Source of the DNA: a virus | Length of the DNA stretch: 64,000 nt | IMG/VR virus record: IMGVR_UViG_3300045988_079296 | Span: 32,001 to 96,000 of that record | Strand: one strand, 5' to 3' | Part shown: one piece after another, positions 2,290 to 59,327 of the stretch | Layout: each line of letters opens with the position of its first letter | Numbering within the stretch: position 1 is the stretch's first letter | Notes under the pieces: generated by a model | What the model was told of the DNA's origin: nothing | Databases searched by the model: none | What the model saw: the letters and a program-made list of their open reading frames with translations, nothing else | Position numbers and translations under genes: made by a program

Positions 2290-2976
2290 CTAAAATGGTA
2301 AATCTGAATCGTACCTTCTCCAAATTTCTTCGGGAAGGTTTTTCTTTATATAACCCTGCTCGTAAAACAATAAACCTGATTGTGAACGATAGAATTTGGA
2401 TGCTAATTTCCACTTAATATCCGCAAACTCTTCAACGGGAACTGAACGAGATAAATACCAATCTTCCTTTTGCTCTTTTACTTGCGCTTGAGAACGTCTC
2501 TTGTAAGAGTGCGGGAACTCCCGATAATAGTCCATGTCAGAGAAGTGAGTTTGTAACGTTTCCCGAACGAATAAGTGGAACGGGTGTCCAACCCCCCAAG
2601 GAGCAAGAACCTTGTACCCTTTATTCTTTTTCAAGAACTTTCTTACCCATTCAACCAACGCATCTTCAATCTCGGTTAATGTCTCACGTCCGAAGTATTG
2701 ATTCAGGTATTTATAAGCATTTTCCAAGGTGACTCCCTTCGGGTATGCCTTATTATACCCGTAATAACTTTCATCCTTGAAATCAAGCTCCAAATGATGA
2801 TACGGGATATTTAAAAACTCAAATAGCTTCGCATCCTCCGCTACTCTCTTCTCATCATTCTCAACGTTCAAAACTTGAACTTCATATTCGGGGAAGAATA
2901 GTACATGAGAACAGCAGAATAAAGCATCGTCCGAATGCGGAGCTACTATGAGATATTTTTGTTTTATTTTTCCCAT
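2290..2976 (-). CDS. PIG-L/LmbE-family de-N-acetylase-like protein
   Basis: 228 aa. LIVAPHSDDALF matches the family AHPDD-type motif, and a later GHPFH looks like a metal-ligand motif. It overlaps the upstream gene by 13 nt. Confidence 0.55.
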   Translation of the reverse strand: MGKIKQKYLIVAPHSDDALFCCSHVLFFPEYEVQVLNVENDEKRVAEDAKLFEFLNIPYHHLELDFKDESYYGYNKAYPKGVTLENAYKYLNQYFGRETLTEIEDALVEWVRKFLKKNKGYKVLAPWGVGHPFHLFVRETLQTHFSDMDYYREFPHSYKRRSQAQVKEQKEDWYLSRSVPVEEFADIKWKLASKFYRSQSGLLFYEQGYIKKNLPEEIWRRYDSDLPF

Positions 2977-3920
2977 TTCCTTCTTACGATAATAGGAGAT
3001 AAAAAGCCATCTTTGTGCACACTTTGTGCTAACTTCTTGACCTCTGGAGTTATCTCTGGCAAAGTCTCTTGACCCGAACTATCAGGCAAGAACCCTACAC
3101 GCATACTAATATTCGTACAACCACTACAAGGTCGGAAGTTACGACTGTAATTGTAGAGCATAATTCTCGCAGCTCGAAAACGTTCATGATTCCAAAGCTC
3201 TACAATCCCCATGTCGTTGATATTAGCAATCGGATATTCCCCACGGAAGTCATCGCAACATAAAGAAACGTTGCCATCGTATCGGAAAGCTAATTCACGG
3301 AAAGGCATAGCACAACGCTTGTTGTTATACGACTTATCCAACGGAGCTGCTGCACCGCAATGATTGGCAAGTTTACGTGTTATCTTGTTGTCCTCCTTAA
3401 TCGGTGGCAATAACAATATTCTCGGTTTCTTGTTGTTAGTGTACAACGGTATTCCCTTTTCATAGAATACAACGTTCCACGCCCCTTCGGGAAGTTTATT
3501 TACAAAATTCCAATCTCCCTCGTCCGTATAACAATCCACGATAAGATTGTTTATTCCAGCATCGAAAAGGCTCTCAACATATTCCTCTGTATTCTCGGCT
3601 CTATTTGCCGCATAACCGTTCGTGTACATATGTAAAATAGCATTCGGCAATTCCTCTCGGAATATCTTTACTATTTCCATAATCTTCGGATTCAACGTTG
3701 GCTCTCCATGCTGAGCGAATACTATTTTGCTATTCCAACCTGCTTTAGCAATCTCGCTCGCTATTCTCTTTGCGGTTTTGATACTCATGTGATTCCAAGG
3801 TTTCGTTCCTTTTTCACGCATACCTCTCAACCCACAGAAAGAGCATCCCAAATTACATCCTTCGGTTGGTTCAATTAGCACCGTGAACGGTGCTTGTTGT
3901 ACAATTTTCTTTTTAGCCAT
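2964..3920 (-). CDS. radical SAM enzyme with SPASM/twitch-like C-terminal Cys cluster
   Basis: 318 aa. CNLGCSFC is the CX3CX2C motif near the N-terminus. The C-terminal region reads CAMPFRELAFRYDGNVSLCCDDF...RPCSGC. Confidence 0.8.
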   Translation of the reverse strand: MAKKKIVQQAPFTVLIEPTEGCNLGCSFCGLRGMREKGTKPWNHMSIKTAKRIASEIAKAGWNSKIVFAQHGEPTLNPKIMEIVKIFREELPNAILHMYTNGYAANRAENTEEYVESLFDAGINNLIVDCYTDEGDWNFVNKLPEGAWNVVFYEKGIPLYTNNKKPRILLLPPIKEDNKITRKLANHCGAAAPLDKSYNNKRCAMPFRELAFRYDGNVSLCCDDFRGEYPIANINDMGIVELWNHERFRAARIMLYNYSRNFRPCSGCTNISMRVGFLPDSSGQETLPEITPEVKKLAQSVHKDGFLSPIIVRRKWEK

Positions 3921-11946: not shown

Positions 11947-13050
11947 CTATAATGATTTTGTTTTCGGTACAAATTTACTTCGTTGCTTACCCTCTCCGAT
12001 AATCATCTTCCAATACTTCTGAAATTCGCAAAGCCACATTTCAATTTGGTGAAGAGTTATATTGGGCTCATCTGACGTGTAATATTCTCCGTCCTCCATA
12101 TCCCAATACAGATAGGGAAAGTTTTCTTTTTTCTCTTCGCTTATTCTTCCCAACCATTCTTCTGCCAAATCTCTTAACCAATATATGGCAGGTTTTTGTT
12201 CTCGGAGCGTAGAAAGGTTTGGATATATGAGACGAATGCCGATACTACACCCTGGCCCAACGTTCGTGAAGTCGTTTTGGTCAAACTTCATAAAACGTCT
12301 GCCCGTGTACTTCGGTATATATGTGAAGTCCTGATAGAACTCATGAGCAATAAAATCGGCTACCGCAGGGAACGTTTTCAAGTACTCAATAATCTCTTCT
12401 GGCTTCTTAGCGGTCATCACCTTAGCAATGAGCTTATCCATGTTCTTATGCAGATGCGGAATAACAACCCTTGTATAGCAATAGTCTCTCGGTTGACCAG
12501 GTGTTGCTTGAGAGTTAATCAAGTAAGCAGTTGTATAAGGGTTTTGCCCCGAACTACGAACGCCAGCAATGAAACGGCTGAACTCGTCCTCATCGTATTC
12601 ATCCCAATCGGGTATGCCGTTCTTCCACTTTGTAGCCGCAATCAATTCGTCTTTCGATTGAGCTTGTTTTAATCCCGATTTCACTGGTGCTCCAAATAAG
12701 CTCGGTTGAAGTGTTTTTCCTTTCGGCTCAAACATAAACGTTTCGGGGCAATTAAAGAAGCGGAAAACCATCATCTTCCAAACCAAGTTCTTCAACGACA
12801 AACTTTCGTCAAGAAGAATGTTCTTGATTTGCCATTGACTATTTCGGTCAAGCTCCCGATACACGTTGGTGAACTTTGACTCTTGAAAAATCTTGTTCTT
12901 TGTCCAAGGTCGTTCTTTCCCGTCTATGAACCTCCGTTTCCATATAAGCTGGCGTTCATACATAGTCTCAAAGAACAAACGCAAATGAGGCTCGTACACC
13001 TCAAGATTTTCGTCAGGTAACTTATCGTACCATGCTGCATTTTCAAACAT
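11947..13050 (-). CDS. candidate alpha-glutamyl/putrescinyl-thymine pyrophosphorylase-like (aGPT-Pplase-like) DNA base-modification enzyme
   Basis: 367 aa. The segment ERQLIWKRRF..GKERPWTKNKIFQESKFTNVYRELDRNSQW resembles, from memory, the conserved N-terminal block of aGPT-Pplase families. This was not verified by a search. Confidence 0.4.
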   Translation of the reverse strand: MFENAAWYDKLPDENLEVYEPHLRLFFETMYERQLIWKRRFIDGKERPWTKNKIFQESKFTNVYRELDRNSQWQIKNILLDESLSLKNLVWKMMVFRFFNCPETFMFEPKGKTLQPSLFGAPVKSGLKQAQSKDELIAATKWKNGIPDWDEYDEDEFSRFIAGVRSSGQNPYTTAYLINSQATPGQPRDYCYTRVVIPHLHKNMDKLIAKVMTAKKPEEIIEYLKTFPAVADFIAHEFYQDFTYIPKYTGRRFMKFDQNDFTNVGPGCSIGIRLIYPNLSTLREQKPAIYWLRDLAEEWLGRISEEKKENFPYLYWDMEDGEYYTSDEPNITLHQIEMWLCEFQKYWKMIIGEGKQRSKFVPKTKSL

Positions 13051-18860: not shown

Positions 18861-19053
18861 ATTCCTCAATTTTTCTTTGTTTATCTTCTTCGGTCATATT
18901 GCAAGTGCGTCCTATAATGTTACTTGATAATATCTTCACGCTTCCATCAGGCTGCTTTTGCATCATAGTTTCAACGGCAAAGTCGTTACCTTGACCGAAG
19001 TCAACCCCGATAAACAAACCTTTGCCGTTGGTGAATTGTTGGAACTGTCTCAT
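18814..19053 (-). CDS. hypothetical protein
   Basis: 79 aa. Its ATG overlaps the dUTPase stop as TAATG. Confidence 0.45.
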   Translation of the reverse strand: MRQFQQFTNGKGLFIGVDFGQGNDFAVETMMQKQPDGSVKILSSNIIGRTCNMTEEDKQRKIEEYERLCENEAVEQKST

Positions 19054-19508
19054 TATTTCATTCCCGTGTGTCCATAACCTCCCGCACCTCTCTCGGAGTC
19101 ACGCTGAAAGCCTTCTACTGGTTTCCATGTAGCTTGGAATAAACCGCCTGAGCCGTTGCACACCGCCTGAGCAATTCTCTCCCCTCTCTTAACAACAAAC
19201 GTCTCGTTGCTGAGATTAATCAAAGGCACTCCAACTTCTCCTTGGTAGTCGGCATCTATTGTGCCAGGTGCGTTGATAACTGTTATGCCTTTCTTAACAG
19301 CCAAACCGCTTCTCGGTCTTATCTGCATTTCGGCATCCGTAGGTAGCTCAACATATACTCCCGTAGGAACAACGCAACGTTCCATGGGTTGAAGTACAAT
19401 GTCATTAACGTTTGCAGCATACAAATCTGCTCCTGCCGAAAGTTCGGTTGCATAATAGGGAAGTTTACCAAAACCTTTGATAATAATTCTTACGTCTCTC
19501 TTTTCCAT
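19053..19508 (-). CDS. dut: dUTP pyrophosphatase
   Basis: 151 aa. Motifs seen: SAGADLYA, RSGLAVKKGITV.NAPGTIDADYQGEVGV, GERIAQ and RGAGGYGHTG. Confidence 0.95.
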   Translation of the reverse strand: MEKRDVRIIIKGFGKLPYYATELSAGADLYAANVNDIVLQPMERCVVPTGVYVELPTDAEMQIRPRSGLAVKKGITVINAPGTIDADYQGEVGVPLINLSNETFVVKRGERIAQAVCNGSGGLFQATWKPVEGFQRDSERGAGGYGHTGMK

Positions 19509-44241: not shown

Positions 44242-44601
44242 TTACAATCTTCTTTTCTTCTCATCGCCCATTTGTTGCCATTTAAACCATACGGCATTCT
44301 TGTGGAACTGGCATTGCACTACGGGTGAATCATCAATTACTTTGTTATACGCTGCAATGAATGAACTACGGTTCATGTAGTTCATCGCTTGCTTATTTAA
44401 GAACTCTGTAATATTAATGCCAGTTACCGTATTGAAGTCCACTGATTGGGCACTATTGAAGAATGACTCTGTCCACTCGTACACGCTGAAGAAAGCGCAA
44501 GAGTTATCGGGCAAGATAACTTGAAGGATAGCACAACCCTCCAATACCAATGATTCAATCGCTTTTTGGAATAGCGTAAAATCTACTTGTTGTTGATTCA
44601 T
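44242..44601 (-). CDS. hypothetical protein
   Basis: 119 aa with an ATG start. Confidence 0.5.
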   Translation of the reverse strand: MNQQQVDFTLFQKAIESLVLEGCAILQVILPDNSCAFFSVYEWTESFFNSAQSVDFNTVTGINITEFLNKQAMNYMNRSSFIAAYNKVIDDSPVVQCQFHKNAVWFKWQQMGDEKKRRL

Positions 44602-50287: not shown

Positions 50288-51649
50288 TTATTTCTTGCCG
50301 TTCAACTTACTGCGAATGTCCTTCATTGTAAGTTTTGCTTTTGGCTTTTCTTCTTCCTCATCGTCCTCTTCTTCGGTTTCATCTTCACCCTCTTCGTCAG
50401 AGTCATCCATGGCTTCTCGGATAGCTTCACGCAGGTCATCGTCTGACATAGACTTCTTAACCGATACTTCCAAACCTTGCTCTTTTATGTACTTCTTGAG
50501 CTCGCTTCTGTCCATATCGTCCAAGCCGTCATCCTCCGCTTCTGTTTCCTCTTCTTCGCTCTCTTCCTCTTCGTCATCATCTTCTTCCTCGTCCTCTGGC
50601 TCTTCTACTTTCTTTTTGCCCTTCGGAGCTGCTTTGGAAGATTTCTTGGCGGGTTTTTCTTCCTCTTCTTCATCATCGCTGTCGTCCTCATCTTCTTCCT
50701 CTTCTTTCTTGGAAGTCTTTTTGGACGTTACTTTCTTTGAGGTTTTCTTTTTTGGCTTTTCTTCTTCCTCATCGTCCTCTGCGTCATATTGGGCTTTCAC
50801 CTCTTCTACGATAGCCAACCAATCTTCGTCCTCGAACATTTCCAGTTCATGTTCTTCGTCAAAGTTCTGCAAGCCTTCCAAAGCACGTTCAAAGTCTCTC
50901 ATGCCGTAGGTCGGGATAACCTCTGAAAGTGGTTTAAGGGTCATGAAATACTCAATTTCCTCGTCTGTAAGAGGTCTTGGAGATACCTTTTTGGGGAAGG
51001 TAGTTTCATAGTAATTTTCGCCCTTCTTCTTGTTCGGCTTCTTCATGTACTTAACCATGATTGGCAAACCTTCATCGGGGTCAGTGAACGGGTCAACTTC
51101 AATCGGCTCGTCCTCATCTTCGGAGAATGCAAGTTTGTTCATCTGGTCACGAACCATTTTCTTGAACTCCCACAATTTAGCTCTCAACTCTTCGTCAGCC
51201 ACTACCTTATCAGCGTAGCACAACCAAGTGTACTGCGGGCTCAATGAATCTTGTCCTGAGAAGCATTCCAATTTGTCCGCATCCTTCTTCCACTTGTTCT
51301 TAGCGAACTTGATGAACTCGGCGCAAATATCCTTCTCCGTACCTCCGTGAACTACGGAGTCAAGAACCGTTCCACGTCCTTGTTCGCCATCGTTGCGTTC
51401 GTAGGTTATCCAGTAACACTTCTTGGCTACATAGAAGTTTTCCTCACCAGGGTGACCAGGGAAGATACGAATTTTGATTGTCTTACCGTCCTCCAAGTTC
51501 AGATACTCGTTACTTTGAACGCCAACCATTTCGTTGTCTTCGTCCACTACCTTCTTCAATTTCTTGATTGAAGTAGGTTTTAATGCGGCTCTTAAATCAC
51601 CGCCTTTTGATGCATTTTTCTTTGCCATAGCTTTCTTAAAATCTACCAT
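50288..51649 (-). CDS. gp32-like ssDNA-binding protein with long acidic tail and HeH/SAP-like module
   Basis: 453 aa. GKTIKIRIFPGHPGEENFY parallels T4 gp32 GQAVIRFLPSKND, and KLWEFKKMVRDQMNKL parallels KVFKYRFGKKIWDKI. The C-terminus is extremely acidic. Its position is between UvsY-like and UvsX-like genes. Confidence 0.5.
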   Translation of the reverse strand: MVDFKKAMAKKNASKGGDLRAALKPTSIKKLKKVVDEDNEMVGVQSNEYLNLEDGKTIKIRIFPGHPGEENFYVAKKCYWITYERNDGEQGRGTVLDSVVHGGTEKDICAEFIKFAKNKWKKDADKLECFSGQDSLSPQYTWLCYADKVVADEELRAKLWEFKKMVRDQMNKLAFSEDEDEPIEVDPFTDPDEGLPIMVKYMKKPNKKKGENYYETTFPKKVSPRPLTDEEIEYFMTLKPLSEVIPTYGMRDFERALEGLQNFDEEHELEMFEDEDWLAIVEEVKAQYDAEDDEEEEKPKKKTSKKVTSKKTSKKEEEEDEDDSDDEEEEEKPAKKSSKAAPKGKKKVEEPEDEEEDDDEEEESEEEETEAEDDGLDDMDRSELKKYIKEQGLEVSVKKSMSDDDLREAIREAMDDSDEEGEDETEEEDDEEEEKPKAKLTMKDIRSKLNGKK

Positions 51650-51664
51650 TTAAAATATTGTTAT

Positions 51665-52186
51665 TTAATCTCCAATCAGTTTTTTCGTTCTCTTTATAAG
51701 AACGTTGTTCACTCTACCTTCGATAACTGAATCAGCAATATCTCCTTGCTGAACCGTCAAACTTAATTTATCCAGTTTCTCGGACTTATCCTTGGCTGAC
51801 CAAAAGATAGAGTTCATATAATCTCTCGTCTTTTGTTTTTCAAGATAACTTCTGCGCATAGCTTGATAACCTTTCTCCAATAAAACCGCAGTATTGACTG
51901 CATCTACGCTCGGAGCTTTACCATTTCGGTCAGCAAGTTTGATACGCAAACTCTCCTTGAGTTTTGCTTCGGTTACTTCCAAGTTCAATTTAGCAAGAGC
52001 AACTTGATTTTCGGCTTCCGCAAGTAATTGACCAAAACGGTTTACAATGACTGGGAAGGTTATCATTTCGCCAATAAGGTTTGAATAATCAATCTTTAAT
52101 AGGCTATCAACGTCCACATCCTCGTCAAATTCATCAAACTTCAAAACGTAGGTTTGACTGCCTATGGTAATTACTTTCTTGTCCAT
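51665..52186 (-). CDS. UvsY-like recombination mediator (tentative)
   Basis: 173 aa and helical, with LLAEAENQVALAKLNLEVTEAKLKE. Its position next to the SSB and UvsX-like genes supports the call. Confidence 0.3.
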   Translation of the reverse strand: MDKKVITIGSQTYVLKFDEFDEDVDVDSLLKIDYSNLIGEMITFPVIVNRFGQLLAEAENQVALAKLNLEVTEAKLKESLRIKLADRNGKAPSVDAVNTAVLLEKGYQAMRRSYLEKQKTRDYMNSIFWSAKDKSEKLDKLSLTVQQGDIADSVIEGRVNNVLIKRTKKLIGD

Positions 52187-52188: not shown

Positions 52189-52497
52189 TTATTCTTTTTC
52201 TTGTTCTTCTTTTTCCTCTTCTTCAAGAATGTGTAACCCGATAACGGCATAACCGATAATGTCCTTTAGAGTGTCTTGGATGCTCTCAAAATTCGGCTCT
52301 TCTCCCTTTAATCGGTTTTCCACCATGTTTCTTAACCTTGATGTTTTGTCCCAAATATGAACCATGTTGCCGTTCATACCCAAATCAAAACTCGCTCCTT
52401 TGTAGTCTTTGTTTTTCTTTAACAAGATTTCAGTCATGCCATCAAAGATGCCATTGATACTTTCTCTCGTCATTTCTTCACCTTTCTTCTTACTCAT
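52189..52497 (-). CDS. DUF1599 / nucleotide-modification-associated domain 1 (MazG-fold) protein
   Basis: 102 aa. KNKDYKGASFDLG...IWDKTSRLRNMV...DTLKDIIGYAVIGLHIL fits the DUF1599 pattern as I remember it. Confidence 0.5.
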   Translation of the reverse strand: MSKKKGEEMTRESINGIFDGMTEILLKKNKDYKGASFDLGMNGNMVHIWDKTSRLRNMVENRLKGEEPNFESIQDTLKDIIGYAVIGLHILEEEEKEEQEKE

Positions 52498-53131
52498 CGT
52501 TAAATAAGTTTTTTAAATTATACAATTCGGTTATGTTAATCTCCACATCGGGGAAATTTATTTTCAAACTGTTTATAACAGCATCAACCGCTTTCGGGAA
52601 ATTTTGTTTTGCTCTCTCCCATTGTTCATCCAATCCTCTATTACCCAATGAACGTTCTCTTTTCATATAGAAGTAAAGAGCCATCCAATCGCATAGTTTA
52701 GCGAACTTCTTTTCAGGCTCTGGGCAAGCGCAAACCATAGATAACATCATATTTGATGCATCGGTATCTGTTCCGTGTTCGTCTGTTTCCTTGAACTCCC
52801 TTAACGCTATATGCTTTGATAGATTGTCAAGAACTCTTCTGACTTCCTCTCCGTTGTAGTCGTTATACTTAGTTTCATGGGACATATCCCGAAGTATCAA
52901 TGCTTCATCCCAATCGTGGAAGATAGCTCTTGAAACTACATCCAACTTAAACAATAATACCTTCGGGTCAATACTATGACCAAATACATCCTCCAATAAA
53001 ACTCTTGCGAATACCGCATCTTTATAAGAGTGTTGACTCACGCTTTCTTCCTTGAAAACGTCCATTTCCTGCCACTGCTTAATATTATCAAGTCTGTGCA
53101 GATACTTACTTTTGATAATCTTGTTTAACAT
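52490..53131 (-). CDS. HD-domain phosphohydrolase, YfbR-like 5'-deoxynucleotidase
   Basis: 213 aa. ESVSQHSYKDAVFARVL (H) plus AIFHDWDEALILRD (HD...D) parallels YfbR NVAEHS.../LFHDASE..TGD. Confidence 0.65.
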   Translation of the reverse strand: MLNKIIKSKYLHRLDNIKQWQEMDVFKEESVSQHSYKDAVFARVLLEDVFGHSIDPKVLLFKLDVVSRAIFHDWDEALILRDMSHETKYNDYNGEEVRRVLDNLSKHIALREFKETDEHGTDTDASNMMLSMVCACPEPEKKFAKLCDWMALYFYMKRERSLGNRGLDEQWERAKQNFPKAVDAVINSLKINFPDVEINITELYNLKNLFNDE

Positions 53132-53133
53132 TT

Positions 53134-53149
53134 CAATTTGATTTACGAT
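53134..53149 (-). promoter_or_regulatory. conserved leader motif copy 5 (caatttgatttacgat)
   Basis: 2 nt upstream of ATG 53131, within the 11-nt gap after dnaE. Confidence 0.65.
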
Positions 53150-56100
53150 ATTATATAAATTTTTGTTCTTTCGTCTGAATAAAGAACCTTTTGATTTTTG
53201 AACTTATCCTTCTTGACCCGTCCGCAAATTGCCACTACTCGGTTTTTATACTCCGATATATTTTCAGGAAGTCTATCCACCGCATCTGGCCAAAGTGTAA
53301 CAGGTATGATGGTATTATTACAGTCTATATTAACGCTGACCATCGTTCCGTTCTTAATTTGACGCTCTTGGTAGTAGATTAACTTGCCTGCTATTGTGGC
53401 TTCTCTGCCCTCCTTAGTGTTCGCAAATTCAAAGTCATTAACGTATAACTTTGCCACTCTCTTATTTGGAATAGCATCCCTAATCATTGTTTCATAATCT
53501 ACCTCTCCAAACCCAGTAAGACGTTTCTGTTCAAATACCCAAAATGAGTTTTTGTTAGCTTCTTCGGTCTGATACTCCTTAGCAATATCCGCTTTCTTAT
53601 ACTCGGCAAACCATTGCAACAACTTTTTCCTATCTCTTGGGTTTTTCAAGTTTTCTACAATGTCGAAAGCTCCAGCAACAATCAGACGTTCTATGACTTT
53701 CTTGTTTACTTTGGACGGAACTCTTTCCACGAACTCTTCAAGAGAAAAGAACTTGCCCCCCTTCTCCCGTTCTTCGATAATATACGGCACAACTTTCTCT
53801 CCAACGTCCTTAATCTTTGTTAAGCTAAAGAAGATGCGTTGTTCCTTCGGGTCACAAGTAAAGGTTTGAGCTGAGAAGTTCACATCAGGCGGTCTTATCT
53901 CAATTTCCGCTCCCGTCTTTTTAAGCTCTGCAAGTCGGTATGGCACTTCACCTTCTTTAGAGAATTGCAGAGCTGTTGTCCAAAATTCCAACGGGTAGTT
54001 TACTTTCATATATTGACTCCAATACGACATTATGGAATATGCCGCAGCATGAGACTTATTAAAACCATAACCAGAGAAGGCAAGAAGTTTAGCCCAAACT
54101 TTCTCGGCATACTCGTCTGGCTTCTCAATCTTGTTTTTCCTTAATAGCTCGCTGTAACCTTTCTTGAATTTCTCTCCGTAGGATGATAGTGTTTTAACAT
54201 CCTTCTTTTTTATGGTAGTTCGGAGAATATCTGATTCAACCTCCGTCAATCCTCCTACCACAACGCCCTTCATGATTTGCTCTTGATAGACGTATAATCC
54301 AAAAGTTTCTGCCGTTATCTCTTCCATACCGAAGTCGTATGTTGGTTTCTTCTTTCCGTTCTTAATATCGGCAAAATCAGAGTGAGCGTTGAGCTCCATT
54401 GGGCCAGGTCGGAATAGAGCGGTCATGGCTATGAGTTGAGCCAACGTATCGGGTTTCACTTGTCTTGAGTAGTTCATAAGTCCTTGCGTACCGAACTGAA
54501 AGACATCTTCATTCCAACCTCTCTTAAAGTATTTGAATGTTTCCTCGTCATCAAGCGGAATAGCGTTCCAATCAATCTTCTTTCCGTAATTCTTTTGGAT
54601 TAATACTTCCATGTTCTTGAACTTATCTAATTGGTTTAATCCCAATATATCCTCTTTCAAGAAGCCAGACTTGTCTATGTATTTACCTTCCCACTCCGAC
54701 ACTAAGACACCGTCAATCATCTTAACGGGCATCCATTCCCATATATCAATCGGTCTATTCGTACCGTCCACAGTATGTTTCGGAACTATGATTGCGGCTG
54801 AAGGGTGAACGGATGCCGCCTTGCATTGCAACATGCCATACTTCGTTAGATGTACAATATCGGGGTTTTCTTGAACGAACTTAAACAACGCTTTCGATTT
54901 ACTGGCATACTCAAGCAAGTCGCCCCAAGTGTATTCAATTTGGTCGTCAATATCCTTCGTTAGTTTATTCATGGTATCAAATGGAATACCCTTGACTTTC
55001 CCGAAGTCCTTCAAACAAGTCTTCAATTTCATTCGGGTGTACGTTCCGATACTGCATGTATAATCATAACCATATTTTTCCTTGATATAATTCTTAACCG
55101 CATCACGGTGTTCGGTTGGAAAGTCAACGTCAATATCGGGCATACTATCCGCTGATTTGGCTCGCTCTCCCGATACACGTGTCTCATTCAAGAAACGTTC
55201 AAACATTAATCCGTACTTCAACGGGTCAACATCCGTAATATGTAAGCAATAAGCTACAAGACTACCGCAAACCGAACCACGCCCAGTACCAACCATTATA
55301 CCTCGTTTCTTACACCAATTGATTATATCCCAAAGTATCATAAAGTAGTCCACAAGGTCGTTGGGAACAATTACGTTACATTCGATTTCCAAACGTTTCA
55401 TGTATATCGCCAATTCTTTCTTGGGAAGATGCCCCAACCTTTCGTTTGCCCCCTTCTCTACCATATCAAAGAATAACCCAACGGCATCATCTACCTCAAA
55501 CGCAGGTAGTTTCTTTTCTCCGCTCGGTATCTTGAAGTCAACCTTATCAACTAACAAGGTTGCATTCTCAATGCCTTCTACGATAGTTTGGAATAACGGC
55601 TCAACCTCTTCCAACCAATCGGAATATTCCTCAAAGGTTTCTCCACAAGTCTTGAAGTATTGGTTTATAGCTTCGGGTGCGGCTTTTCCTAACACTTTGT
55701 TGATAACGCCTTTCAACTCGTGCATTTCTCGGTCAAGATAATAGGAGTCATTTATCAATATCGGCTTCAATAGCTTCTTATAGTTACAAATATATGTATC
55801 TATGTTTTCCAAGTGCTTCTTGAAGAGATTATCAGAGACGAACTCAACGGTGTCCACCTGATAATAAACTCTTGTAAAATGCTTCTTATACTTTGCTATG
55901 AGCTTGATAGTTTCCTTCTTATCGTCTTTAATGTAGTTGAACTCTGACTCCTTCGGGATAACGCAAACCAAACCTTTCCCAAGTTCCAACAATTCGCTCT
56001 CTGGGATGAAACCATTATACGTTACATTAACAGCCTTATTTATCAACAAAAGGTTTTTCCAACCTTCGTAATTCAGTATGTAAAACTTTAATTCAAACGT

Positions 56101-56682
56101 TTCTTGGTTTTGTTTATCTTTTGAATAGTCCTTCGCTACCGTTATTGTTTCACCGATAACGGACTTCACGCCATACTTATCGCAGAAGGTCTGAAAGGAT
56201 AACGCTCCAGCCAACGTATTTCGGTCACATATCCCCAACGCCTTAACTCCAACAAACTTTGCTTTCTTTGCCCATGTATCGCAACCTCCCGAACCATTCA
56301 ATATTTCATATTCGGTATGTACACCAAGATGTGCAAAGTCCATTATGTACTCTTCGCTAATTTTACCAAGATACTTGAAGTCCAAGAATTGTGGCTTGAA
56401 GATAATTTCGTTGTATCGGTTTTTATCCTTCTTTATTCCCGAATAATAGAACTTGCTTCCAAATTCAAAGAGGATGTATTTGACTTTCCCCTCGTCCAGC
56501 ATATCAAATTCTTCATCTGAAAGGATAAACCCAAAGTCCTCGTCAATTATTTTACCATCAAAAGGATGAAGATACAAAAAGTCTCCAACCTCTTCGATAG
56601 AGATAATATCAGAGCCGTCCAACGTTGACTCTGATATTACCATGTGATTATCTTCTATCCACTTTTGTAGATTTTCCGTCAT
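53143..56682 (-). CDS. dnaE: DNA polymerase III alpha subunit (DnaE family, PHP domain)
   Basis: 1179 aa. The PHP N-terminus is HLGVHTEYEILNGSG and the palm/fingers region includes GRGSVCGSLVAYCLHITDVDP, PDIDVDF and FNKSHAAAYS. There is an N-terminal extension of about 110 aa. Confidence 0.95.
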   Translation of the reverse strand: MTENLQKWIEDNHMVISESTLDGSDIISIEEVGDFLYLHPFDGKIIDEDFGFILSDEEFDMLDEGKVKYILFEFGSKFYYSGIKKDKNRYNEIIFKPQFLDFKYLGKISEEYIMDFAHLGVHTEYEILNGSGGCDTWAKKAKFVGVKALGICDRNTLAGALSFQTFCDKYGVKSVIGETITVAKDYSKDKQNQETFELKFYILNYEGWKNLLLINKAVNVTYNGFIPESELLELGKGLVCVIPKESEFNYIKDDKKETIKLIAKYKKHFTRVYYQVDTVEFVSDNLFKKHLENIDTYICNYKKLLKPILINDSYYLDREMHELKGVINKVLGKAAPEAINQYFKTCGETFEEYSDWLEEVEPLFQTIVEGIENATLLVDKVDFKIPSGEKKLPAFEVDDAVGLFFDMVEKGANERLGHLPKKELAIYMKRLEIECNVIVPNDLVDYFMILWDIINWCKKRGIMVGTGRGSVCGSLVAYCLHITDVDPLKYGLMFERFLNETRVSGERAKSADSMPDIDVDFPTEHRDAVKNYIKEKYGYDYTCSIGTYTRMKLKTCLKDFGKVKGIPFDTMNKLTKDIDDQIEYTWGDLLEYASKSKALFKFVQENPDIVHLTKYGMLQCKAASVHPSAAIIVPKHTVDGTNRPIDIWEWMPVKMIDGVLVSEWEGKYIDKSGFLKEDILGLNQLDKFKNMEVLIQKNYGKKIDWNAIPLDDEETFKYFKRGWNEDVFQFGTQGLMNYSRQVKPDTLAQLIAMTALFRPGPMELNAHSDFADIKNGKKKPTYDFGMEEITAETFGLYVYQEQIMKGVVVGGLTEVESDILRTTIKKKDVKTLSSYGEKFKKGYSELLRKNKIEKPDEYAEKVWAKLLAFSGYGFNKSHAAAYSIMSYWSQYMKVNYPLEFWTTALQFSKEGEVPYRLAELKKTGAEIEIRPPDVNFSAQTFTCDPKEQRIFFSLTKIKDVGEKVVPYIIEEREKGGKFFSLEEFVERVPSKVNKKVIERLIVAGAFDIVENLKNPRDRKKLLQWFAEYKKADIAKEYQTEEANKNSFWVFEQKRLTGFGEVDYETMIRDAIPNKRVAKLYVNDFEFANTKEGREATIAGKLIYYQERQIKNGTMVSVNIDCNNTIIPVTLWPDAVDRLPENISEYKNRVVAICGRVKKDKFKNQKVLYSDERTKIYIIS

Positions 56683-57878
56683 AGCTTACCAAGATATTTA
56701 TGCTTCATTGGTTTACTTAACCTTGCTGCAAAGAAGTTCTTTGCTAATATCGACATATCCCAACCGTCCGCACCTTCGGCTTCCAACAACTCAATCTCGG
56801 CAATAGCGGTCTTTCTTATCGCATCCTTTTCAAGAGCCGTTTTTGCAAGCGTCATTTTCTGCTTGTAGAGCACGTATATCTTCAAGAGCTGATAAACGTT
56901 ATAAAAGTAAGTTGAAAACTCTTGTAGCTGCTTAATTTCATCTTGTACGTCAGTCTCTCCGTTCTTTACCCTCATAAGGTTTTCGATAACGATATTCAAG
57001 TGAGCATCTACCTCTCTGAGACGGTTGACCGCTACTTCGTGAGAGAACGCAAAGTCCATCGGTCTTGCTTCGGCTTCGGTTGCCTCATAGAGCGAATGAC
57101 CCATGCCTTGTTGTTGGTATATCTCGTCCATCTTTTGAGCCGTACCATTCCAATCATAAATATGTAAGCTCTGGGAGTTGTGAGTTTGCGTTCCTAACTC
57201 AATACCTAAACAACGGCACATTATCTCGGTAAGGAAGGAGAATTGGAATATGTTCGTAGGCAATCCCCAATGAAGGTCGTTACTTCGGTTTGCGATAGTA
57301 GTTATCAATTTGCCCTTCCGAACTTTCAACTTTATGAGGTCATTGCACGGTATATCCTTACTTTTTGCCCCAAGGTCAAAACTTGGATTCCAAATCGCCA
57401 TTACAACTTGTCTGGTATTCATATTCTCGGATAACAAACGAACCGCATCTGCTACTTGGTCATATCCTTGAGCTGCCGTTACTCCGTTCTCATATTTATC
57501 CTCCGTCCGAATACCCCAGTGGCGAAGTCTGAACCCGTAAGGAGCGTGGAATGTTTTGCCATCATCAGAAAAGTCTTTCATTCGTGCGTTGAAGATTTCC
57601 AAAAATTCCAAATCTTTTCTTCCTACGGCTATCCACATAGCTTCGGCAAGAAGGAAGAAGATGTTTATATCTCTTCCATAACCGCCAACACACCTCGCAA
57701 TGGGATTGGTGATAATAGTTTTGATGTCTAATAATTCTTTAGCATCCCCAGCACGGCTCTCTTCGCTTTCTTGGTTGTTCAAGATGTAGTTATTAATCAC
57801 TGGATAGAGTGCTCCAAATTCCTCCACTTTTGCTACTCCGTAGTCAGGCAGGAAACAATTTGTCTTTGGTAGTCCCAT
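56679..57878 (-). CDS. thymidylate synthase superfamily enzyme (ThyA / pyrimidine hydroxymethylase-like, divergent)
   Basis: 399 aa. DIPCNDLIKLKVRKGKLITTIANRSNDLHWGLPTNIFQFSFL aligns to ThyA [40 protein letters not shown]. The folate/W80-region is divergent. A helical C-terminal extension of about 100 aa is present. It has an ATGA overlap with dnaE. Confidence 0.8.
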   Translation of the reverse strand: MGLPKTNCFLPDYGVAKVEEFGALYPVINNYILNNQESEESRAGDAKELLDIKTIITNPIARCVGGYGRDINIFFLLAEAMWIAVGRKDLEFLEIFNARMKDFSDDGKTFHAPYGFRLRHWGIRTEDKYENGVTAAQGYDQVADAVRLLSENMNTRQVVMAIWNPSFDLGAKSKDIPCNDLIKLKVRKGKLITTIANRSNDLHWGLPTNIFQFSFLTEIMCRCLGIELGTQTHNSQSLHIYDWNGTAQKMDEIYQQQGMGHSLYEATEAEARPMDFAFSHEVAVNRLREVDAHLNIVIENLMRVKNGETDVQDEIKQLQEFSTYFYNVYQLLKIYVLYKQKMTLAKTALEKDAIRKTAIAEIELLEAEGADGWDMSILAKNFFAARLSKPMKHKYLGKL

Positions 57879-57949: not shown

Positions 57950-57984
57950 GAGAAAAGAAAAAGGAGATACTTTTCAGCACCTCC
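57950..57984 (-). terminator. rho-independent terminator
   Basis: Stem ggagat (57963-57968) / acctcc (57979-57984) with one G-U pair. On the minus strand it is followed by tttttctttt. Confidence 0.5.
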
Positions 57985-58010
57985 CTTTTCAACGGGTTTT
58001 TTGAGACAGC

Positions 58011-59327
58011 TTATTTCTTTTTAACTGTTTTCTTTGCGGCAGGTTTTGCGGCTTTGGCAGATTTCTTCGGAGCAGGTTTTTCATCCTCGTCCTCCTCTTC
58101 TTCCTCTTCAGGCTCTTCTACTTTCTTGCCTTTCTTAGCAGGTTTCGCCTTTGCTTTCGGCTTTTCCTCTTCGTCCTCATCTTCTTCCTCTTCTTCGGCT
58201 TCCTCCTGCTTAGCAGACTTCTTTCCAGCTTTGTTGTCTTTCTTCAAGCCTTCTTCCATTTTCTTGCGGTTGTCGCCCAATTTCTTGTCGATACCTCCAA
58301 CCAACTTGTCCATGTCTTCCTTAACGGCTTTGATGATTTCAATTGCTTCGCTGGTTTCGATAGCCTTGATGACTGGAGCACCGTTCCAACATTTTTCAAA
58401 TTCCACTTCGGCTTTTTCAAGAACTTCGTACTTGTTGTTCAAGATGAGAAGGAACAGATTGCAGGTCATTACCTGATTTTTGCCTTCGCCCTTCAACGTA
58501 CAATTCTCAAGACTGATAACCGAACGGTTGGAATTTTTACCTTTATGTTTGATAGTCAAACCAGCGGCAATCCATGCGTAGATATAATCCTTTTCGGGGA
58601 ACAACTTCTTCAAGAAGTCAAAATGTTCTCTGTCCTCTTCGTTGTTCTTCGGGTCAAGTTTTGTACCTCTCTTGGAAGGAGCTTTGGCAGCTTTCTTCTC
58701 TTCCTTCTTCGGCTCAGCTTTCTTTCCAGACTTCGGAGCTTCTTTGGTTTCGGTTTTACCCTTGGCGGCAGCGGCTTTCTTCGGAGCAGGTTTTTCTTCC
58801 TCTTCTTCGGCTTCTTCCTCATCGCCCATAGCTTCACGAATTTTCTCACGGATGTCGTCATCTGACCAAGACTTCTTCACGGAGATTTCCAGCTCATTTT
58901 CCTTGATAAAGGTTTTCAGCTCGCTTCTGTCCATTGAATCAAGCTCATCGCCTTCTTCCTCGTTTTCCTCTTCATCGTCCTCATCTTCTTCCTCTTCTTC
59001 GGGTTCAGGCTCAGGCTCAGGTTGCTTTTTGGAAGCAGCTTTCTTACCAGTAGCCTTCTTGGCAGGTTTTTCTTCTTCCTCTTCAACCTCTTCAGCTAAA
59101 GCGTCATTTTCTTCTTCCTCGCTACCTTCGTTGTCGTCATCGTCACCTGCTTCGACAAATGATTCAGCAATTTCTACCAGAGTAGTGATGTCCTCATCGT
59201 CCATCTGTTCAATACCATTCTCTTCCAGAATTTCCAGCAATTTTGGTCTTGCTGCTTCGTCTGTTGTTGCGTTAATGCCTAATGCCTTAACTCTCTTTGC
59301 CACATTGGCGGTCAATTTTGTTGCCAT
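58011..59327 (-). CDS. polyampholyte (Glu/Lys/Ala-rich) protein with HeH/SAP-like module and a small globular core
   Basis: 438 aa. It has DSMDRSELKTFIKENELEISVKKSWSDDDIREKIREAM, a central core HFDFLKKLFPEKDYIYAWIAAGL..., and KAKPAKKGKK tails. Confidence 0.6.
   Translation of the reverse strand: MATKLTANVAKRVKALGINATTDEAARPKLLEILEENGIEQMDDEDITTLVEIAESFVEAGDDDDNEGSEEEENDALAEEVEEEEEKPAKKATGKKAASKKQPEPEPEPEEEEEDEDDEEENEEEGDELDSMDRSELKTFIKENELEISVKKSWSDDDIREKIREAMGDEEEAEEEEEKPAPKKAAAAKGKTETKEAPKSGKKAEPKKEEKKAAKAPSKRGTKLDPKNNEEDREHFDFLKKLFPEKDYIYAWIAAGLTIKHKGKNSNRSVISLENCTLKGEGKNQVMTCNLFLLILNNKYEVLEKAEVEFEKCWNGAPVIKAIETSEAIEIIKAVKEDMDKLVGGIDKKLGDNRKKMEEGLKKDNKAGKKSAKQEEAEEEEEDEDEEEKPKAKAKPAKKGKKVEEPEEEEEEDEDEKPAPKKSAKAAKPAAKKTVKKK

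What the first reader, a model, noticed from the sequence alone, without database searches (positions are those of the whole stretch)
52189..57878. ThyA-like enzyme, Pol III alpha, HD 5'-deoxynucleotidase and DUF1599/Nmad1 in one operon: pyrimidine-replacement logic wired to the replicase
The divergent thymidylate-synthase-superfamily gene overlaps dnaE by ATGA. dnaE is followed by a YfbR-like HD nucleotidase and a MazG-fold DUF1599 protein, and a dUTPase lies at 19053-19508. Bacillus hmU phages (SPO1, phi-e, SP8) combine a dUMP hydroxymethylase with dTMP nucleotidase and dTTP/dUTP-hydrolysing activities to replace T with 5-hmU. The same enzyme classes appear here. The residue aligned to E. 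coli ThyA Asn177 is Asn (GLPTN), not the Asp found in T4 dCMP hydroxymethylase. That argues for a uracil substrate. The folate/Trp80 region is divergent and there is an extra C-terminal domain of about 100 aa. This fits a hydroxymethylase or another non-canonical transferase better than a plain ThyA.
Basis: partly seen in the sequence, partly recalled or inferred. Interest (0 to 1): 0.65.

Follow-up and report, generated by a model that had tools for sequence, protein, structure and literature searches.

The report
Phage thymine-replacement genes coupled to replicase
An uncultured ~98 kb phage, probably of gut Bacteroidota, has a dUMP-hydroxymethylase-type enzyme fused by overlapping codons to its DNA polymerase and followed by a nucleotide-destroying HD enzyme, which predicts that this common phage family replaces thymine with 5-hydroxymethyluracil-derived bases.

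Summary
Four minus-strand genes sit at the stated coordinates: a 399-aa ThyA-like protein, a 1179-aa DnaE, a 213-aa YfbR-like HD and a 102-aa DUF1599. The ATGA overlap is confirmed.

The ThyA-like protein is not a canonical thymidylate synthase. It misses every NCBIfam ThyA cut-off. It shares the signature of the reference dUMP hydroxymethylases (SPO1 gp29, SP10, SH-Ab 15599): FSDDG in place of the Trp80/Trp83 segment, PCN, RSND, Asn at position 177, and a long C-terminal extension. It groups with them at 93% bootstrap.

The operon is syntenic across the ~80 related viral contigs sampled. The HMase-dnaE gap is -4 to +5 nt in 72 of 76 loci.

In an unrelated phage lineage, Pplase1, HMase and HD recur as one module (66 and 60 of 80 loci).

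The "MazG-fold" label for DUF1599 is unsupported. No 5-hmdU DNA kinase, Pplase2 or dCMP deaminase was found.

Verdict: a new variant of the known hmU/thymidine-hypermodification pathway. The final base is unknown.

The parts
56679..57878 (-). dUMP hydroxymethylase-type ThyA-superfamily enzyme (399 aa). Residues matching E. coli ThyA: catalytic Cys178 (Cys146), Arg198/Ser199/Asp201 (Arg166/Ser167/Asp169), Asn209 (Asn177), Tyr114 (Tyr94), Glu79 (Glu58), His239/Tyr241 (His207/Tyr209). Has a helical C-terminal extension from about residue 260 to 399.
53143..56682 (-). DnaE-type DNA polymerase III alpha (1179 aa; PHP, pol3 alpha, finger and HHH_6 domains). Its start codon overlaps the hydroxymethylase stop codon (ATGA).
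52490..53131 (-). YfbR-like HD phosphohydrolase (213 aa) with all catalytic residues present (H34, H72-D73, E76, D82, D148). Candidate thymidine-nucleotide (dTMP or dTTP) hydrolase.
52189..52497 (-). DUF1599/Nmad1 protein (102 aa), predicted three-helix bundle with a conserved polar cluster (D31, D38, D50, K51, R54, E71, D75, D79). Overlaps the HD gene by 8 nt. Function unknown.
51665..52186 (-). Conserved 173-aa protein of unknown function. It starts 2 nt after the DUF1599 stop, is syntenic across the family and is probably co-transcribed.
57957..57990 (-). Terminator-like hairpin followed by a T-run, between the upstream acidic-protein gene and the hydroxymethylase. The operon probably starts downstream of it.
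11947..13050 (-). Stand-alone clade-1 aGPT-Pplase / HMUDK_hel protein (367 aa) with an HhH-glycosylase-like fold. Homologue of the C-terminal half of SP10 gp186 and of SH-Ab 15599 Orf49. Predicted to act on 5-hmdU in DNA.
19053..19508 (-). Trimeric-type dUTPase (151 aa). Supplies dUMP and keeps uracil out of DNA.

Best explanation
The operon is the pre-replicative core of a thymine-replacement pathway.

Proposed steps:
1. The dUTPase at 19053-19508 makes dUMP.
2. The 399-aa enzyme uses its catalytic Cys and methylene-tetrahydrofolate to convert dUMP into 5-hydroxymethyl-dUMP instead of dTMP.
3. Host kinases raise it to the triphosphate.
4. The DnaE polymerase incorporates 5-hmdU opposite A. 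DnaE is translationally coupled to the hydroxymethylase through an ATGA overlap.
5. The YfbR-like HD phosphohydrolase downstream most likely destroys thymidine nucleotides (dTMP to dT, or dTTP to dT) so that T does not compete. This would parallel the HD enzyme DatZ, which removes dATP in phage S-2L.
6. After replication, the stand-alone clade-1 aGPT-Pplase/HMUDK_hel protein at 11947-13050 probably converts part of the 5-hmdU in DNA into a further-modified base, or back to T.

DUF1599/Nmad1 is an accessory protein of unknown activity, and only part of the family has it.

Shown here: gene identities, active-site residues, clade placement, conserved coupling and recurrence of the module.
Inferred: every enzymatic activity, the substrate of the HD, and the final base in virion DNA.
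For: Enzyme identity:
- The best matches in cultured phages are SPO1, SP8, SP82G and SP-10 dUMP hydroxymethylases at 37-43% identity, and records annotated 'pyrimidine hmase'.
- Shared signature with SPO1 gp29, SP10, SH-Ab 15599 and MW202557: [FY]SD[DN]G, PCN, RSND, Asn at position 177. E. coli ThyA and the canonical thyA2 of phage MA9V-3 have W..W, PCH/ACH and RS[CA]D. T4 gp42 has Asp.
- All 133 representative relatives carry the signature.
- The split between {ThyA, thyA2, gp42} and the rest has 186/200 bootstraps.
- Best NCBIfam ThyA equivalog score is 76 bits against a cut-off of 174.55.

Coupling and synteny:
- The HMase-dnaE gap is -4 to +5 nt in 72 of 76 family loci.
- Synteny is conserved across the 80 related viral-contig loci, and in the three metagenome contigs that carry a 68%-identical homologue.

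HD:
- All YfbR catalytic residues are present.
- A YfbR-like HD lies within 8 kb of the HMase in 60 of 80 loci of an unrelated phage lineage, and immediately downstream in 34.
- DatZ is a precedent for a YfbR-class HD that enforces base replacement.

Pplase1:
- Pfam HMUDK_hel, E=3e-50.
- Foldseek match to SP10 gp186, E=2e-13, and to proteins annotated 'Pplase1 clade 1'.
- SP10 gp186C is listed as aG/PT-PPlase1, and the family was found only in hypermodifying phages, not in SPO1.
- Pplase1 accompanies the HMase in 64-66 of 80 loci of the independent lineage.

Pathway logic for hmU phages is described in PMC8989533 and PMC13458397.
Against: - There are no biochemical or DNA-composition data.
- No sequence feature is proven to separate hydroxymethylation from methylation. 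The assignment rests on clade membership with a few characterised enzymes, on an NJ tree with only three outgroups.
- No P-loop 5-hmdU DNA kinase, aGPT-Pplase2, dCMP deaminase or dNMP kinase was found in the window or in about 10 kb beyond each end. The known activation step for Pplase-type transfer is therefore missing.
- The substrate of the HD cannot be read from sequence. It scores 37 bits against 122 for the YfbR equivalog.
- DUF1599 is absent from more than half of the family loci and from all 80 loci of the second lineage.
- PHROGs also gives the Pplase1-like protein a weak match to a family labelled 'terminase small subunit'.
Confidence: 0.68

Rival explanations
1. The 399-aa protein is an ordinary, divergent thymidylate synthase that boosts dTMP supply for replication. 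The HD and the dUTPase are general nucleotide-salvage enzymes, and the phage DNA contains normal thymine.
For: It belongs to the ThyA superfamily (PF00303). It keeps the catalytic Cys, Arg, Asp, Tyr and the uracil-specifying Asn. PHROGs and JGI label relatives 'thymidylate synthase'. Placing a nucleotide-supply gene next to the polymerase would make sense for plain dTMP supply too.
Against: - It fails all seven NCBIfam ThyA equivalog cut-offs by a wide margin.
- It lacks Trp80/Trp83, His147 and the C-terminal lid of ThyA.
- It separates from canonical ThyA at 93% bootstrap and sits among enzymes from hmU and hypermodifying phages.
- The genome also carries a Pplase1 gene, whose family was reported only in thymidine-hypermodifying phages.
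- A related phage that does have a canonical-type thyA2 (MA9V-3) shows what a true ThyA looks like in this setting.
Confidence: 0.08
2. The enzyme transfers a one-carbon unit to a different substrate or with a different outcome, for example dCMP hydroxymethylation or methylation, or a non-hydroxyl adduct on dUMP. The modified base would then not be 5-hmU-derived.
For: The folate-side residues are divergent, and the function of the C-terminal domain is unknown. Only a handful of members of this large clade (364 clusters at E<=1e-30) have been characterised.
Against: - Asn is invariant at the Asn177 position in the window protein, in all four reference dUMP hydroxymethylases and in all 133 representative relatives tabulated, whereas dCMP-specific T4 gp42 has Asp there.
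- The partner Pplase1/HMUDK_hel family is tied to 5-hmdU chemistry in SP10.
- No cytosine-pathway genes such as a dCTPase or a glucosyltransferase were identified.
Confidence: 0.07
3. The hydroxymethylase call is right, but the HD and DUF1599 are not thymidine-pool clearing enzymes. The HD could be a general dNMP/dNTP phosphohydrolase used for recycling host DNA breakdown products or for counter-defence. DUF1599 could be a replisome or regulatory accessory. Exclusion of T would then rely on host-pool dynamics or on polymerase selectivity.
For: - E. coli YfbR acts on several dNMPs, and RefSeq names it a dCMP phosphohydrolase.
- Specificity cannot be read from the sequence.
- The window HD has no detectable pairwise similarity to the MW202557 HD.
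- DUF1599 has no detectable relation to MazG or dUTPase_2 families and is dispensable in many relatives.
Against: - The HD is retained next to the hydroxymethylase in two unrelated phage groups. In the window's family it is in every locus that extends past dnaE. In the second lineage it is in 60 of 80 loci, 34 of them immediately adjacent.
- Classical hmU phages have dTMPase and dTTPase activities.
- SH-Ab 15599 places a proven dTTPase/dUTPase in the same position downstream of its hydroxymethylase.
Confidence: 0.25

Closest known systems
Bacillus hmU phages (SPO1 gp29 dUMP hydroxymethylase pathway; SP8, 2C, phi-e)
   Same: Same enzyme clade: 37-39% identity over the catalytic core, the same motif signature, and a C-terminal extension (SPO1 gp29 is 383 aa). 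Same logic of dUMP to 5-hmdUMP, plus removal of T nucleotides, plus a phage polymerase encoded nearby.
   Different: SPO1 uses a family-A polymerase that does not overlap gene 29. No YfbR-like HD or DUF1599 was found next to gp29. SPO1 lacks any aGPT-Pplase. Different host phylum.
Bacillus phage SP10 (alpha-glutamylthymidine): gp188 hydroxymethylase plus gp186 kinase-Pplase1 fusion
   Same: The hydroxymethylase is in the same clade. The window's 367-aa protein is homologous to the C-terminal (aG/PT-PPlase1/HMUDK_hel) half of gp186: BLASTP E=4e-24, Foldseek E=2e-13. Like this window, SP10 has no detected Pplase2.
   Different: In SP10 the Pplase1 domain is fused to a proven P-loop 5-hmdU DNA kinase. 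Here it stands alone and no such kinase was found.
Acinetobacter phage SH-Ab 15599 (alpha-dapT pathway, PMC13458397)
   Same: Gene order is a stand-alone HMUDK_hel protein (Orf49), then the dUMP hydroxymethylase, then a pool-clearing hydrolase (gp18, a proven dTTPase/dUTPase). The functional layout is the same as here.
   Different: Its hydrolase is a P-loop plus all-alpha dUTPase_2 protein, not an HD. It has a 5-HMUDK, a Pplase2 (DADT) and a dCMP deaminase. Its polymerase is not DnaE and is not coupled to the hydroxymethylase.
Cyanophage S-2L DatZ (HD dATP triphosphohydrolase in Z-genome phages)
   Same: A small phage HD phosphohydrolase of the YfbR/OxsA structural class that enforces replacement of a canonical base by destroying its nucleotide. 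PHROG 7076 'dATP triphosphohydrolase' matches the window HD at E=7e-11.
   Different: A different base (A rather than T). There was no PDB sequence match to DatZ at E<=0.1. This is a resemblance in mechanism, not membership.
MW202557-like environmental phages with the module [P-loop kinase] - Pplase1 - 'pyrimidine hmase' - HD hydrolase
   Same: The same trio, Pplase1 plus hydroxymethylase plus YfbR-like HD, is found in 30-67 kb viral contigs: 66, 79 and 60 of 80 loci respectively.
   Different: There the genes form one compact cluster, often with a ~190-aa P-loop kinase, and there is no DnaE or DUF1599. Here the trio is dispersed and the hydroxymethylase and HD flank dnaE.
'Gratiaviridae' (proposed family of Bacteroides/Parabacteroides phages, PMC8008677)
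   Same: The replication module has DnaG, DnaE, SF1/SF2 helicases, SbcCD and RecA, plus ferritin-like enzymes. DnaE is related to that of Cellulophaga phiST.
   Different: Membership was not tested. The only GenBank gut-phage DnaE hits are about 31% identical. That paper does not mention thymidylate synthase, hydroxymethylation or DNA modification.

Membership tests
dUMP hydroxymethylase clade of the ThyA superfamily (SPO1 gp29 type) | ThyA-fold catalytic core with the nucleophilic Cys and the dUMP-binding Arg, Ser, Asp, Tyr and His residues | tested here: met
   C178, R198, S199, D201, Y114, H239 and Y241 are invariant across the family and align to E. coli C146, R166, S167, D169, Y94, H207 and Y209.
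dUMP hydroxymethylase clade of the ThyA superfamily (SPO1 gp29 type) | Asn, not Asp, at the E. coli Asn177 position (uracil specificity) | tested here: met
   N209 in LPTN. It is invariant in A1 and in all 133 representatives. T4 gp42 has Asp there. The meaning of this residue is recalled from the ThyA literature, not tested here.
dUMP hydroxymethylase clade of the ThyA superfamily (SPO1 gp29 type) | Clade signature shared by the characterised members: [FY]SD[DN]G replacing the Trp80/Trp83 segment, PCN instead of PCH, RSND, and a long C-terminal extension instead of the ThyA C-terminal lid | tested here: met
   The signature is empirical, derived here from four reference enzymes.
dUMP hydroxymethylase clade of the ThyA superfamily (SPO1 gp29 type) | Phylogenetic placement with the characterised dUMP hydroxymethylases, apart from ThyA and dCMP hydroxymethylase | tested here: met
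   NJ tree on 233 columns and 141 taxa; the split has 186/200 bootstraps. There are only three outgroup sequences and no ML tree.
dUMP hydroxymethylase clade of the ThyA superfamily (SPO1 gp29 type) | Produces 5-hmdUMP and THF from dUMP and CH2-THF; 5-hmdU or a derivative is present in phage DNA | not testable with these tools
   Needs an enzyme assay and nucleoside LC-MS.
Canonical thymidylate synthase ThyA (EC 2.1.1.45) | Reaches the curated equivalog score of an NCBIfam ThyA model | tested here: not met
   Best scores are 76 bits against 174.55 (TIGR03283) and 68.5 against 327 (NF002497); all seven models fail.
Canonical thymidylate synthase ThyA (EC 2.1.1.45) | Trp80/Trp83 folate-side segment, His147 after the catalytic Cys, and the C-terminal lid | tested here: not met
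   FSDDG, PCN and a ~150-aa helical tail stand in their place.
T4 gp42-type dCMP hydroxymethylase | Asp at the position that specifies cytosine | tested here: not met
   Asn209 here. T4 gp42 falls on the outgroup side of the tree.
YfbR-like HD 5'-deoxynucleotidase (Pfam PF12917) | Pfam domain above the gathering score and the H...HD...E...D...D metal/catalytic residues | tested here: met
   50.6 bits against 25.9. H34, H72-D73, E76, D82 and D148 align to YfbR H33, H68-D69, E72, D77 and D137.
YfbR orthologue (NCBIfam NF003009 equivalog) | Reaches the equivalog cut-off | tested here: not met
   37.2 bits against 122. It is a relative, not an orthologue, so its substrate is open.
MazG / all-alpha NTP pyrophosphohydrolase superfamily (claimed for DUF1599) | Detectable sequence-profile relation to MazG, PRA-PH or dUTPase_2 families | tested here: not met
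   Pfam scan of 28 members at E<=5 found only DUF1599. hhalign against the SH-Ab gp18 dUTPase_2 domain and T4 gp56 gave probability 0.1.
MazG / all-alpha NTP pyrophosphohydrolase superfamily (claimed for DUF1599) | Four-helix-bundle fold matching solved MazG-like structures | tested here: inconclusive
   The model (pLDDT 84) is a three-helix bundle. The best PDB E-value is 0.8. MazG-superfamily entries (2p06, 7mu5, 1vmg, 2gta, 2oie, 2q73, 1yvw) recur among the weak hits at TM 0.43-0.59, mixed with ribosomal L29.
Pfam DUF1599 / Nmad1 (PF07659) | Reaches the Pfam gathering score | tested here: met
   27.9 bits against 25. All 28 aligned homologues match.
aGPT-Pplase clade 1 / HMUDK_hel (PF18723) | Pfam domain above the gathering score, and homology to the C-terminal half of SP10 gp186 | tested here: met
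   171 bits against 25. BLASTP E=4e-24. Foldseek E=2e-13 to SP10 gp186 and 2.6e-4 to 'Pplase1 clade 1'. Weak top PDB hit to the PaMx11 5-PmdU glycinyltransferase, E=0.19.
Characterised thymidine-hypermodification systems (5-HMUDK plus aGPT-Pplase2/AADT) | P-loop 5-hmdU DNA kinase (PF18748) encoded by the phage | tested here: not met
   No Pfam hit among the scanned ORFs. No phmmer hit at E<=10 with the SP10 gp186N or MW202557 kinase. None in the ~10 kb flanks. About 14 kb of the genome was not seen.
Characterised thymidine-hypermodification systems (5-HMUDK plus aGPT-Pplase2/AADT) | Clade-2 aGPT-Pplase (amino-acid or polyamine:DNA transferase) | tested here: not met
   No Pfam or PHROG match in any scanned ORF or in the flanks.
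Bacterial-type DNA polymerase III alpha (DnaE) | PHP, pol3-alpha, finger and HhH domains in order | tested here: met
   PHROG 405, E=2e-207.

The most novel reading that the evidence does not exclude
A large family of ~100 kb phages, probably of human-gut Bacteroidota, carries DNA in which thymine is replaced by a 5-hmU-derived base, possibly a chemically new one. The base would be made by a route that uses a stand-alone clade-1 Pplase without the canonical P-loop 5-hmdU DNA kinase. The YfbR-like HD would be the previously unassigned gene class for the dTMPase/dTTPase activity of hmU phages. Such DNA would be under-recovered or mis-handled by standard virome library methods.
Probability: 0.25. 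Interest if true: 0.75.

Novelty: new variant of a known kind. Interest (0 to 1): 0.55.

Why it matters
If the prediction holds, a widespread family of gut phages has non-canonical thymidine in its DNA. Homologues of the ThyA-like protein occur in hundreds of protein clusters, on contigs of about 95-103 kb from many samples.

This would matter in four ways:
- It would affect how these phages escape Bacteroidota restriction systems.
- It would affect how well they are recovered by tagmentation, restriction-based or nanopore methods.
- It would nominate a gene class, the YfbR-like HD, for the thymidine-nucleotide-clearing activities known biochemically in hmU phages since the 1960s.
- It would give the biochemically uncharacterised clade-1 Pplase a simple genetic setting, with no fused kinase and no Pplase2, in which its activity could be tested.

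Tried and rejected
1. Megablast of the operon against GenBank phages found nothing. There is no close deposited relative.
2. PDB sequence searches gave nothing for the Pplase1-like protein, nothing meaningful for DUF1599, and only a weak 2cqz hit for the HD.
3. MazG hypothesis for DUF1599:
   - hhalign against two all-alpha NTPases gave nothing.
   - A Pfam scan of 28 members at E<=5 gave nothing but DUF1599.
   - Foldseek was not significant.
   - The claim is left as unproven, not disproven.
4. Search for a 5-hmdU DNA kinase:
   - Walker-A scan of all ORFs. The only unassigned P-loop protein (29574-30869, GYPGIGKT, phrog_4182) looks AAA+-like.
   - The 249-aa PNK-like ORF (39277-40026) has no Walker A.
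   - phmmer with known kinases found nothing.
5. A regex search for dCMP deaminase motifs found nothing.
6. 'TRQ' in place of the ThyA 'SRR' was considered as a signature and dropped, because SH-Ab 15599 and many relatives have RR.
8. Iyer et al. 2013, the source of the Nmad1 and aGPT-Pplase names, is not in the library.
9. The first attempt at a distant-lineage locus search failed because no block was conserved enough. It worked with a narrower alignment.
10. Rfam found no intron in the split dnaE genes of relatives.

Full report
**1. Observation**

All four genes lie on the minus strand at the coordinates given.

| Gene | Coordinates | Length | Family evidence |
|---|---|---|---|
| ThyA-like | 57878..56679 | 399 aa | PF00303, E=5.5e-24, residues 75-247 only |
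| DnaE | 56682..53143 | 1179 aa | PHP, DNA_pol3_alpha, finger, HHH_6 |
| HD | 53131..52490 | 213 aa | PF12917 YfbR-like, E=2.5e-13 |
| DUF1599/Nmad1 | 52497..52189 | 102 aa | PF07659, 27.9 bits, cut-off 25 |

- The ThyA-like stop and the dnaE start overlap as ctATGAcg.
- HD and DUF1599 overlap by 8 nt.
- A terminator-like hairpin at 57990-57957 precedes the ThyA-like gene, so the transcription unit probably starts there.
- The dUTPase at 19053-19508 is confirmed.

**2. What the ThyA-like protein is**

Closest cultured phages. A translated search of GenBank phages puts the dUMP hydroxymethylases of the Bacillus hmU phages first: SPO1 gp29, SP8 and SP82G, and SP-10, at 37-43% identity over the catalytic core. 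Records annotated 'pyrimidine hmase' are also near the top.

Alignment with references. The references were SPO1 gp29, the SP10 hydroxymethylase, the SH-Ab 15599 hydroxymethylase, MW202557, T4 gp42, E. coli ThyA and the canonical-type thyA2 of Chryseobacterium phage MA9V-3. The SH-Ab enzyme was used in the published reconstitution of alpha-dapT.

- The window protein keeps every dUMP-binding and catalytic residue, including Asn at the E. coli Asn177 position.
- With the dUMP hydroxymethylases it shares FSDDG where ThyA has IWDEWAD, so Trp80 and Trp83 are missing.
- It has PCN instead of PCH, RSND, and a ~150-aa helical tail in place of the ThyA C-terminal lid.
- T4 gp42 has Asp at the specificity position.

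The link between Asn177 and uracil, and between Asp and cytosine, is recalled from the ThyA literature. It was not tested here.

Wider sampling. A search of 1.84 billion representatives found 364 clusters at E<=1e-30. All 133 full-length representatives examined carry the same signature.

Tree. In a neighbour-joining tree (233 columns, 141 taxa), the split between {E. coli ThyA, MA9V-3 thyA2, T4 gp42} and everything else has 186/200 bootstraps. The window protein is bracketed by SPO1/SP10 and the deeper SH-Ab 15599 enzyme.

Curated models. The protein fails every NCBIfam ThyA equivalog cut-off; the best score is 76 bits against 174.55.

Conclusion. It is a member of the dUMP hydroxymethylase clade and not a plain ThyA.

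**3. Conservation and coupling to the replicase**

- Homologues at 57-98% identity sit on metagenomic contigs of about 95-103 kb.
- In the 80 IMG/VR loci fetched, the order is conserved wherever the sequence extends far enough: DnaB, primase, p146, sigma-like, acidic protein, ThyA-like, DnaE, HD, (DUF1599), p173, SSB-like, RecA.
- The distance from the ThyA-like stop to the dnaE start is -4 to +5 nt in 72 of 76 loci. Twenty-four of them have the 4-nt overlap.

**4. The HD protein**

- It has all the catalytic residues of E. coli YfbR.
- It is far below the YfbR equivalog threshold, 37 bits against 122, so its substrate is open.
- PHROGs links it to 'dATP triphosphohydrolase'.
- DatZ of cyanophage S-2L is a small HD of the YfbR/OxsA structural class that enforces base replacement by destroying dATP.

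The strongest evidence for a role in the pathway is contextual. In GenBank record MW202557 the 'pyrimidine hmase' is directly followed by a YfbR-like HD. In 80 loci of that unrelated lineage (30-67 kb contigs), an HD with the H..HD..E motif lies within 8 kb of the hydroxymethylase in 60 loci, and immediately downstream in 34.

Classical hmU phages have dTMPase and dTTPase activities. SH-Ab 15599 places a proven dTTPase/dUTPase, of a different fold, in the same position.

I infer that the HD removes thymidine nucleotides. This is inference, not demonstration.

**5. DUF1599/Nmad1**

- The family is well conserved, with invariant residues K28, N29, D31, Y32, GASFDLG, W49, D50, K51, R54, E71, D75, D79 and H89.
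- The AlphaFold model (pLDDT 84) is a three-helix bundle.
- Foldseek finds nothing significant. MazG-superfamily entries recur among hits with E of about 1-4, mixed with ribosomal helices.
- Profile comparisons with two all-alpha NTPases, and a permissive Pfam scan of 28 members, show no relation.
- It is detected in only about 30 of 84 family loci and in none of the 80 loci of the second lineage.
- The 'MazG-fold' label is unproven, and the protein is an optional accessory.

**6.

The 367-aa ORF. An all-against-all BLAST against reference loci showed that the ORF at 13050..11947 is homologous to the C-terminal half of SP10 gp186 and to SH-Ab 15599 Orf49. Orf49 lies immediately upstream of that phage's hydroxymethylase.

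- Pfam calls it HMUDK_hel, E=3e-50.
- SP10 gp186 is a P-loop 5-hmdU DNA kinase (N-terminal half) plus HMUDK_hel (C-terminal half).
- The 2018 PNAS paper lists gp186C as aG/PT-PPlase1. It states that this glycosylase-like family was found only in the hypermodifying phages examined, not in SPO1.
- The model (pLDDT 85) matches SP10 gp186 (E=2e-13), a PhiW-14 protein and 'Pplase1 clade 1' entries in BFVD.
- In the PDB its top, weak, hit is the PaMx11 5-PmdU glycinyltransferase, followed by HhH glycosylases.
- It is more conserved than the hydroxymethylase across the family: 76% against 55% mean column identity.
- A non-iterated profile of it hits 64 of the 80 loci of the second lineage. There the common orders are Pplase1>HMase>HD (24 loci) and kinase>Pplase1>HMase>HD (21 loci).

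What was not found:
- No P-loop 5-hmdU DNA kinase, Pplase2, dNMP kinase or dCMP deaminase in the window.
- None in about 10 kb beyond each end, which holds structural and lysis genes.
- About 14 kb of the ~98 kb genome was not seen.

**7. Lineage**

- There is no close nucleotide match in GenBank phages.
- The DnaE is closest (31-35% identity) to those of Chryseobacterium phage MA9V-3, the Cellulophaga phiST group, Tenacibaculum phage Larrie and Bacteroides phages. This points to a Bacteroidota host.
- Identical proteins occur on 96.7-98.7 kb contigs whose sample labels look like human-gut study codes. I did not verify this.
- The replication module and the ferritin-like gene fit the description of the proposed 'Gratiaviridae' of Bacteroides. 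That paper does not mention thymidylate synthase or any DNA modification.
- I found no paper linking gut Bacteroidota phages to 5-hmU chemistry.

**8. Mechanism**

Shown here:
- gene identities, active-site residues and clade placement;
- conserved translational coupling to dnaE;
- recurrence of the Pplase1, hydroxymethylase and HD trio in two unrelated phage groups.

Inferred:
- dUTPase supplies dUMP.
- The hydroxymethylase makes 5-hmdUMP.
- Host kinases make the triphosphate.
- DnaE incorporates it.
- The HD clears dTMP or dTTP.
- Pplase1 further processes 5-hmdU in DNA.

The missing kinase is the main gap. Three explanations are open: it lies in the unseen 14 kb, it is a non-canonical kinase, or clade-1 Pplase works differently from clade 2.

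**9. Rivals**

| Rival | Confidence | Main evidence against |
|---|---|---|
| Plain ThyA | 0.08 | Failed thresholds, missing residues, tree, presence of Pplase1 |
| Different substrate or adduct | 0.07 | Invariant Asn, 5-hmdU-linked partner |
| HD and DUF1599 unrelated to pool clearing | 0.25 (sub-claim) | HD adjacency in two lineages; remains plausible for DUF1599 |

**10. Novelty**

The kind of system is known: the hmU and thymidine-hypermodification pathway. New here are four things:
- the lineage;
- the conserved overlap with a DnaE replicase;
- a YfbR-like HD as the recurrent partner, in place of an all-alpha dTTPase;
- a stand-alone clade-1 Pplase with no detectable kinase or Pplase2.

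I rate it a new variant of a known kind, of moderate interest. All functional statements rest on homology and gene context.

Noticed in passing
window 847-3920 (minus strand): A three-gene cluster next to the head-morphogenesis genes. It holds a radical SAM + SPASM protein (3920..2964; PF04055 E=9.5e-16, PF13186 E=9e-12), a 228-aa protein with PIG-L/LmbE-like motifs (APHSDD...GHPFH, judged by eye only), and a 479-aa protein with a sub-threshold Glycos_transf_1 hit (E=0.002). It is conserved in near-identical contigs. It could be a second DNA- or surface-modification module.
   Followed up: partly
window 24634-24939 (minus strand): An HU-family DNA-binding protein (PF00216, E=1e-22) that is 40% identical to SPO1 TF1, the HU homologue of an hmU phage. 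That level of identity is common among HU proteins, so nothing specific can be inferred.
   Followed up: no
window 50288-51649 and 58011-59327 (minus strand): Two highly acidic, lysine-rich proteins (29% D+E) flank the operon. They share a 47%-identical segment that includes the motif D(D/S)MDRSELKxxIKExxLExSVKKSxSDDDxRExIREAM, which is SAP/Ish1-like. The downstream one weakly matches an SSB PHROG.
   Followed up: partly
L013 8908-13461 and 25 other related loci: In 26 of 76 relatives dnaE is split into two or three ORFs at conserved sites, around residues 505-512 and 850-884. In L013 the gap holds a free-standing 267-aa ORF with GIY-YIG/NUMOD-like features, judged by eye. Rfam finds no intron. 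The window's dnaE is intact. Cellulophaga phage records also annotate DnaE in two pieces.
   Followed up: partly
L001 (Chryseobacterium phage MA9V-3), 17169-20155: The closest cultured DnaE relative carries a canonical-type thyA2 together with queE and folE, which are 7-deazaguanine pathway genes. Related replication modules are therefore paired with a guanine-modification pathway in one lineage and a thymine-modification pathway in another.
   Followed up: no
window 18249-18869 (minus strand): A ferritin/rubrerythrin-like protein (PF00210, E=1.7e-7) lies two genes downstream of the dUTPase, with a small 79-aa ORF (18814-19053) in between. This is consistent with the DPS/Mn-catalase-like genes reported for 'Gratiaviridae'.
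   Followed up: no
window 39277-40026 (minus strand): A 249-aa protein whose C-terminal ~90 residues match polynucleotide-kinase/AAA_33/PSTK-type kinases (phrog_505 E=2e-7; TIGR03574 E=7e-6). It has no Walker A motif. It is not a convincing 5-hmdU DNA kinase.
   Followed up: partly
window 11947-13050 (minus strand): Besides phrog_2396 (unknown function, E=7e-47), the Pplase1/HMUDK_hel protein matches phrog_800, labelled 'terminase small subunit' (E=4e-11, C-terminal part of a 511-position profile). This is probably an annotation artefact of a fusion, but it was not resolved.
   Followed up: no
homologues of window 52189-52497 (alignment A2): Some DUF1599 homologues carry an N-terminal CxxC...zinc-ribbon extension or a ~45-aa C-terminal extension.
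   Followed up: no
window 16340-17821 and 42751-44241; 35746-36237, 44598-45221 and 59370-60020: There are two paralogous UvrD-like SF1 helicases. There is also one clear ECF-type sigma factor (35746-36237) and one weak candidate (59370-60020, Sigma70_r2 E=0.0012). The ORF at 44598-45221 looks sigma-like by eye only, with no family hit.
   Followed up: no
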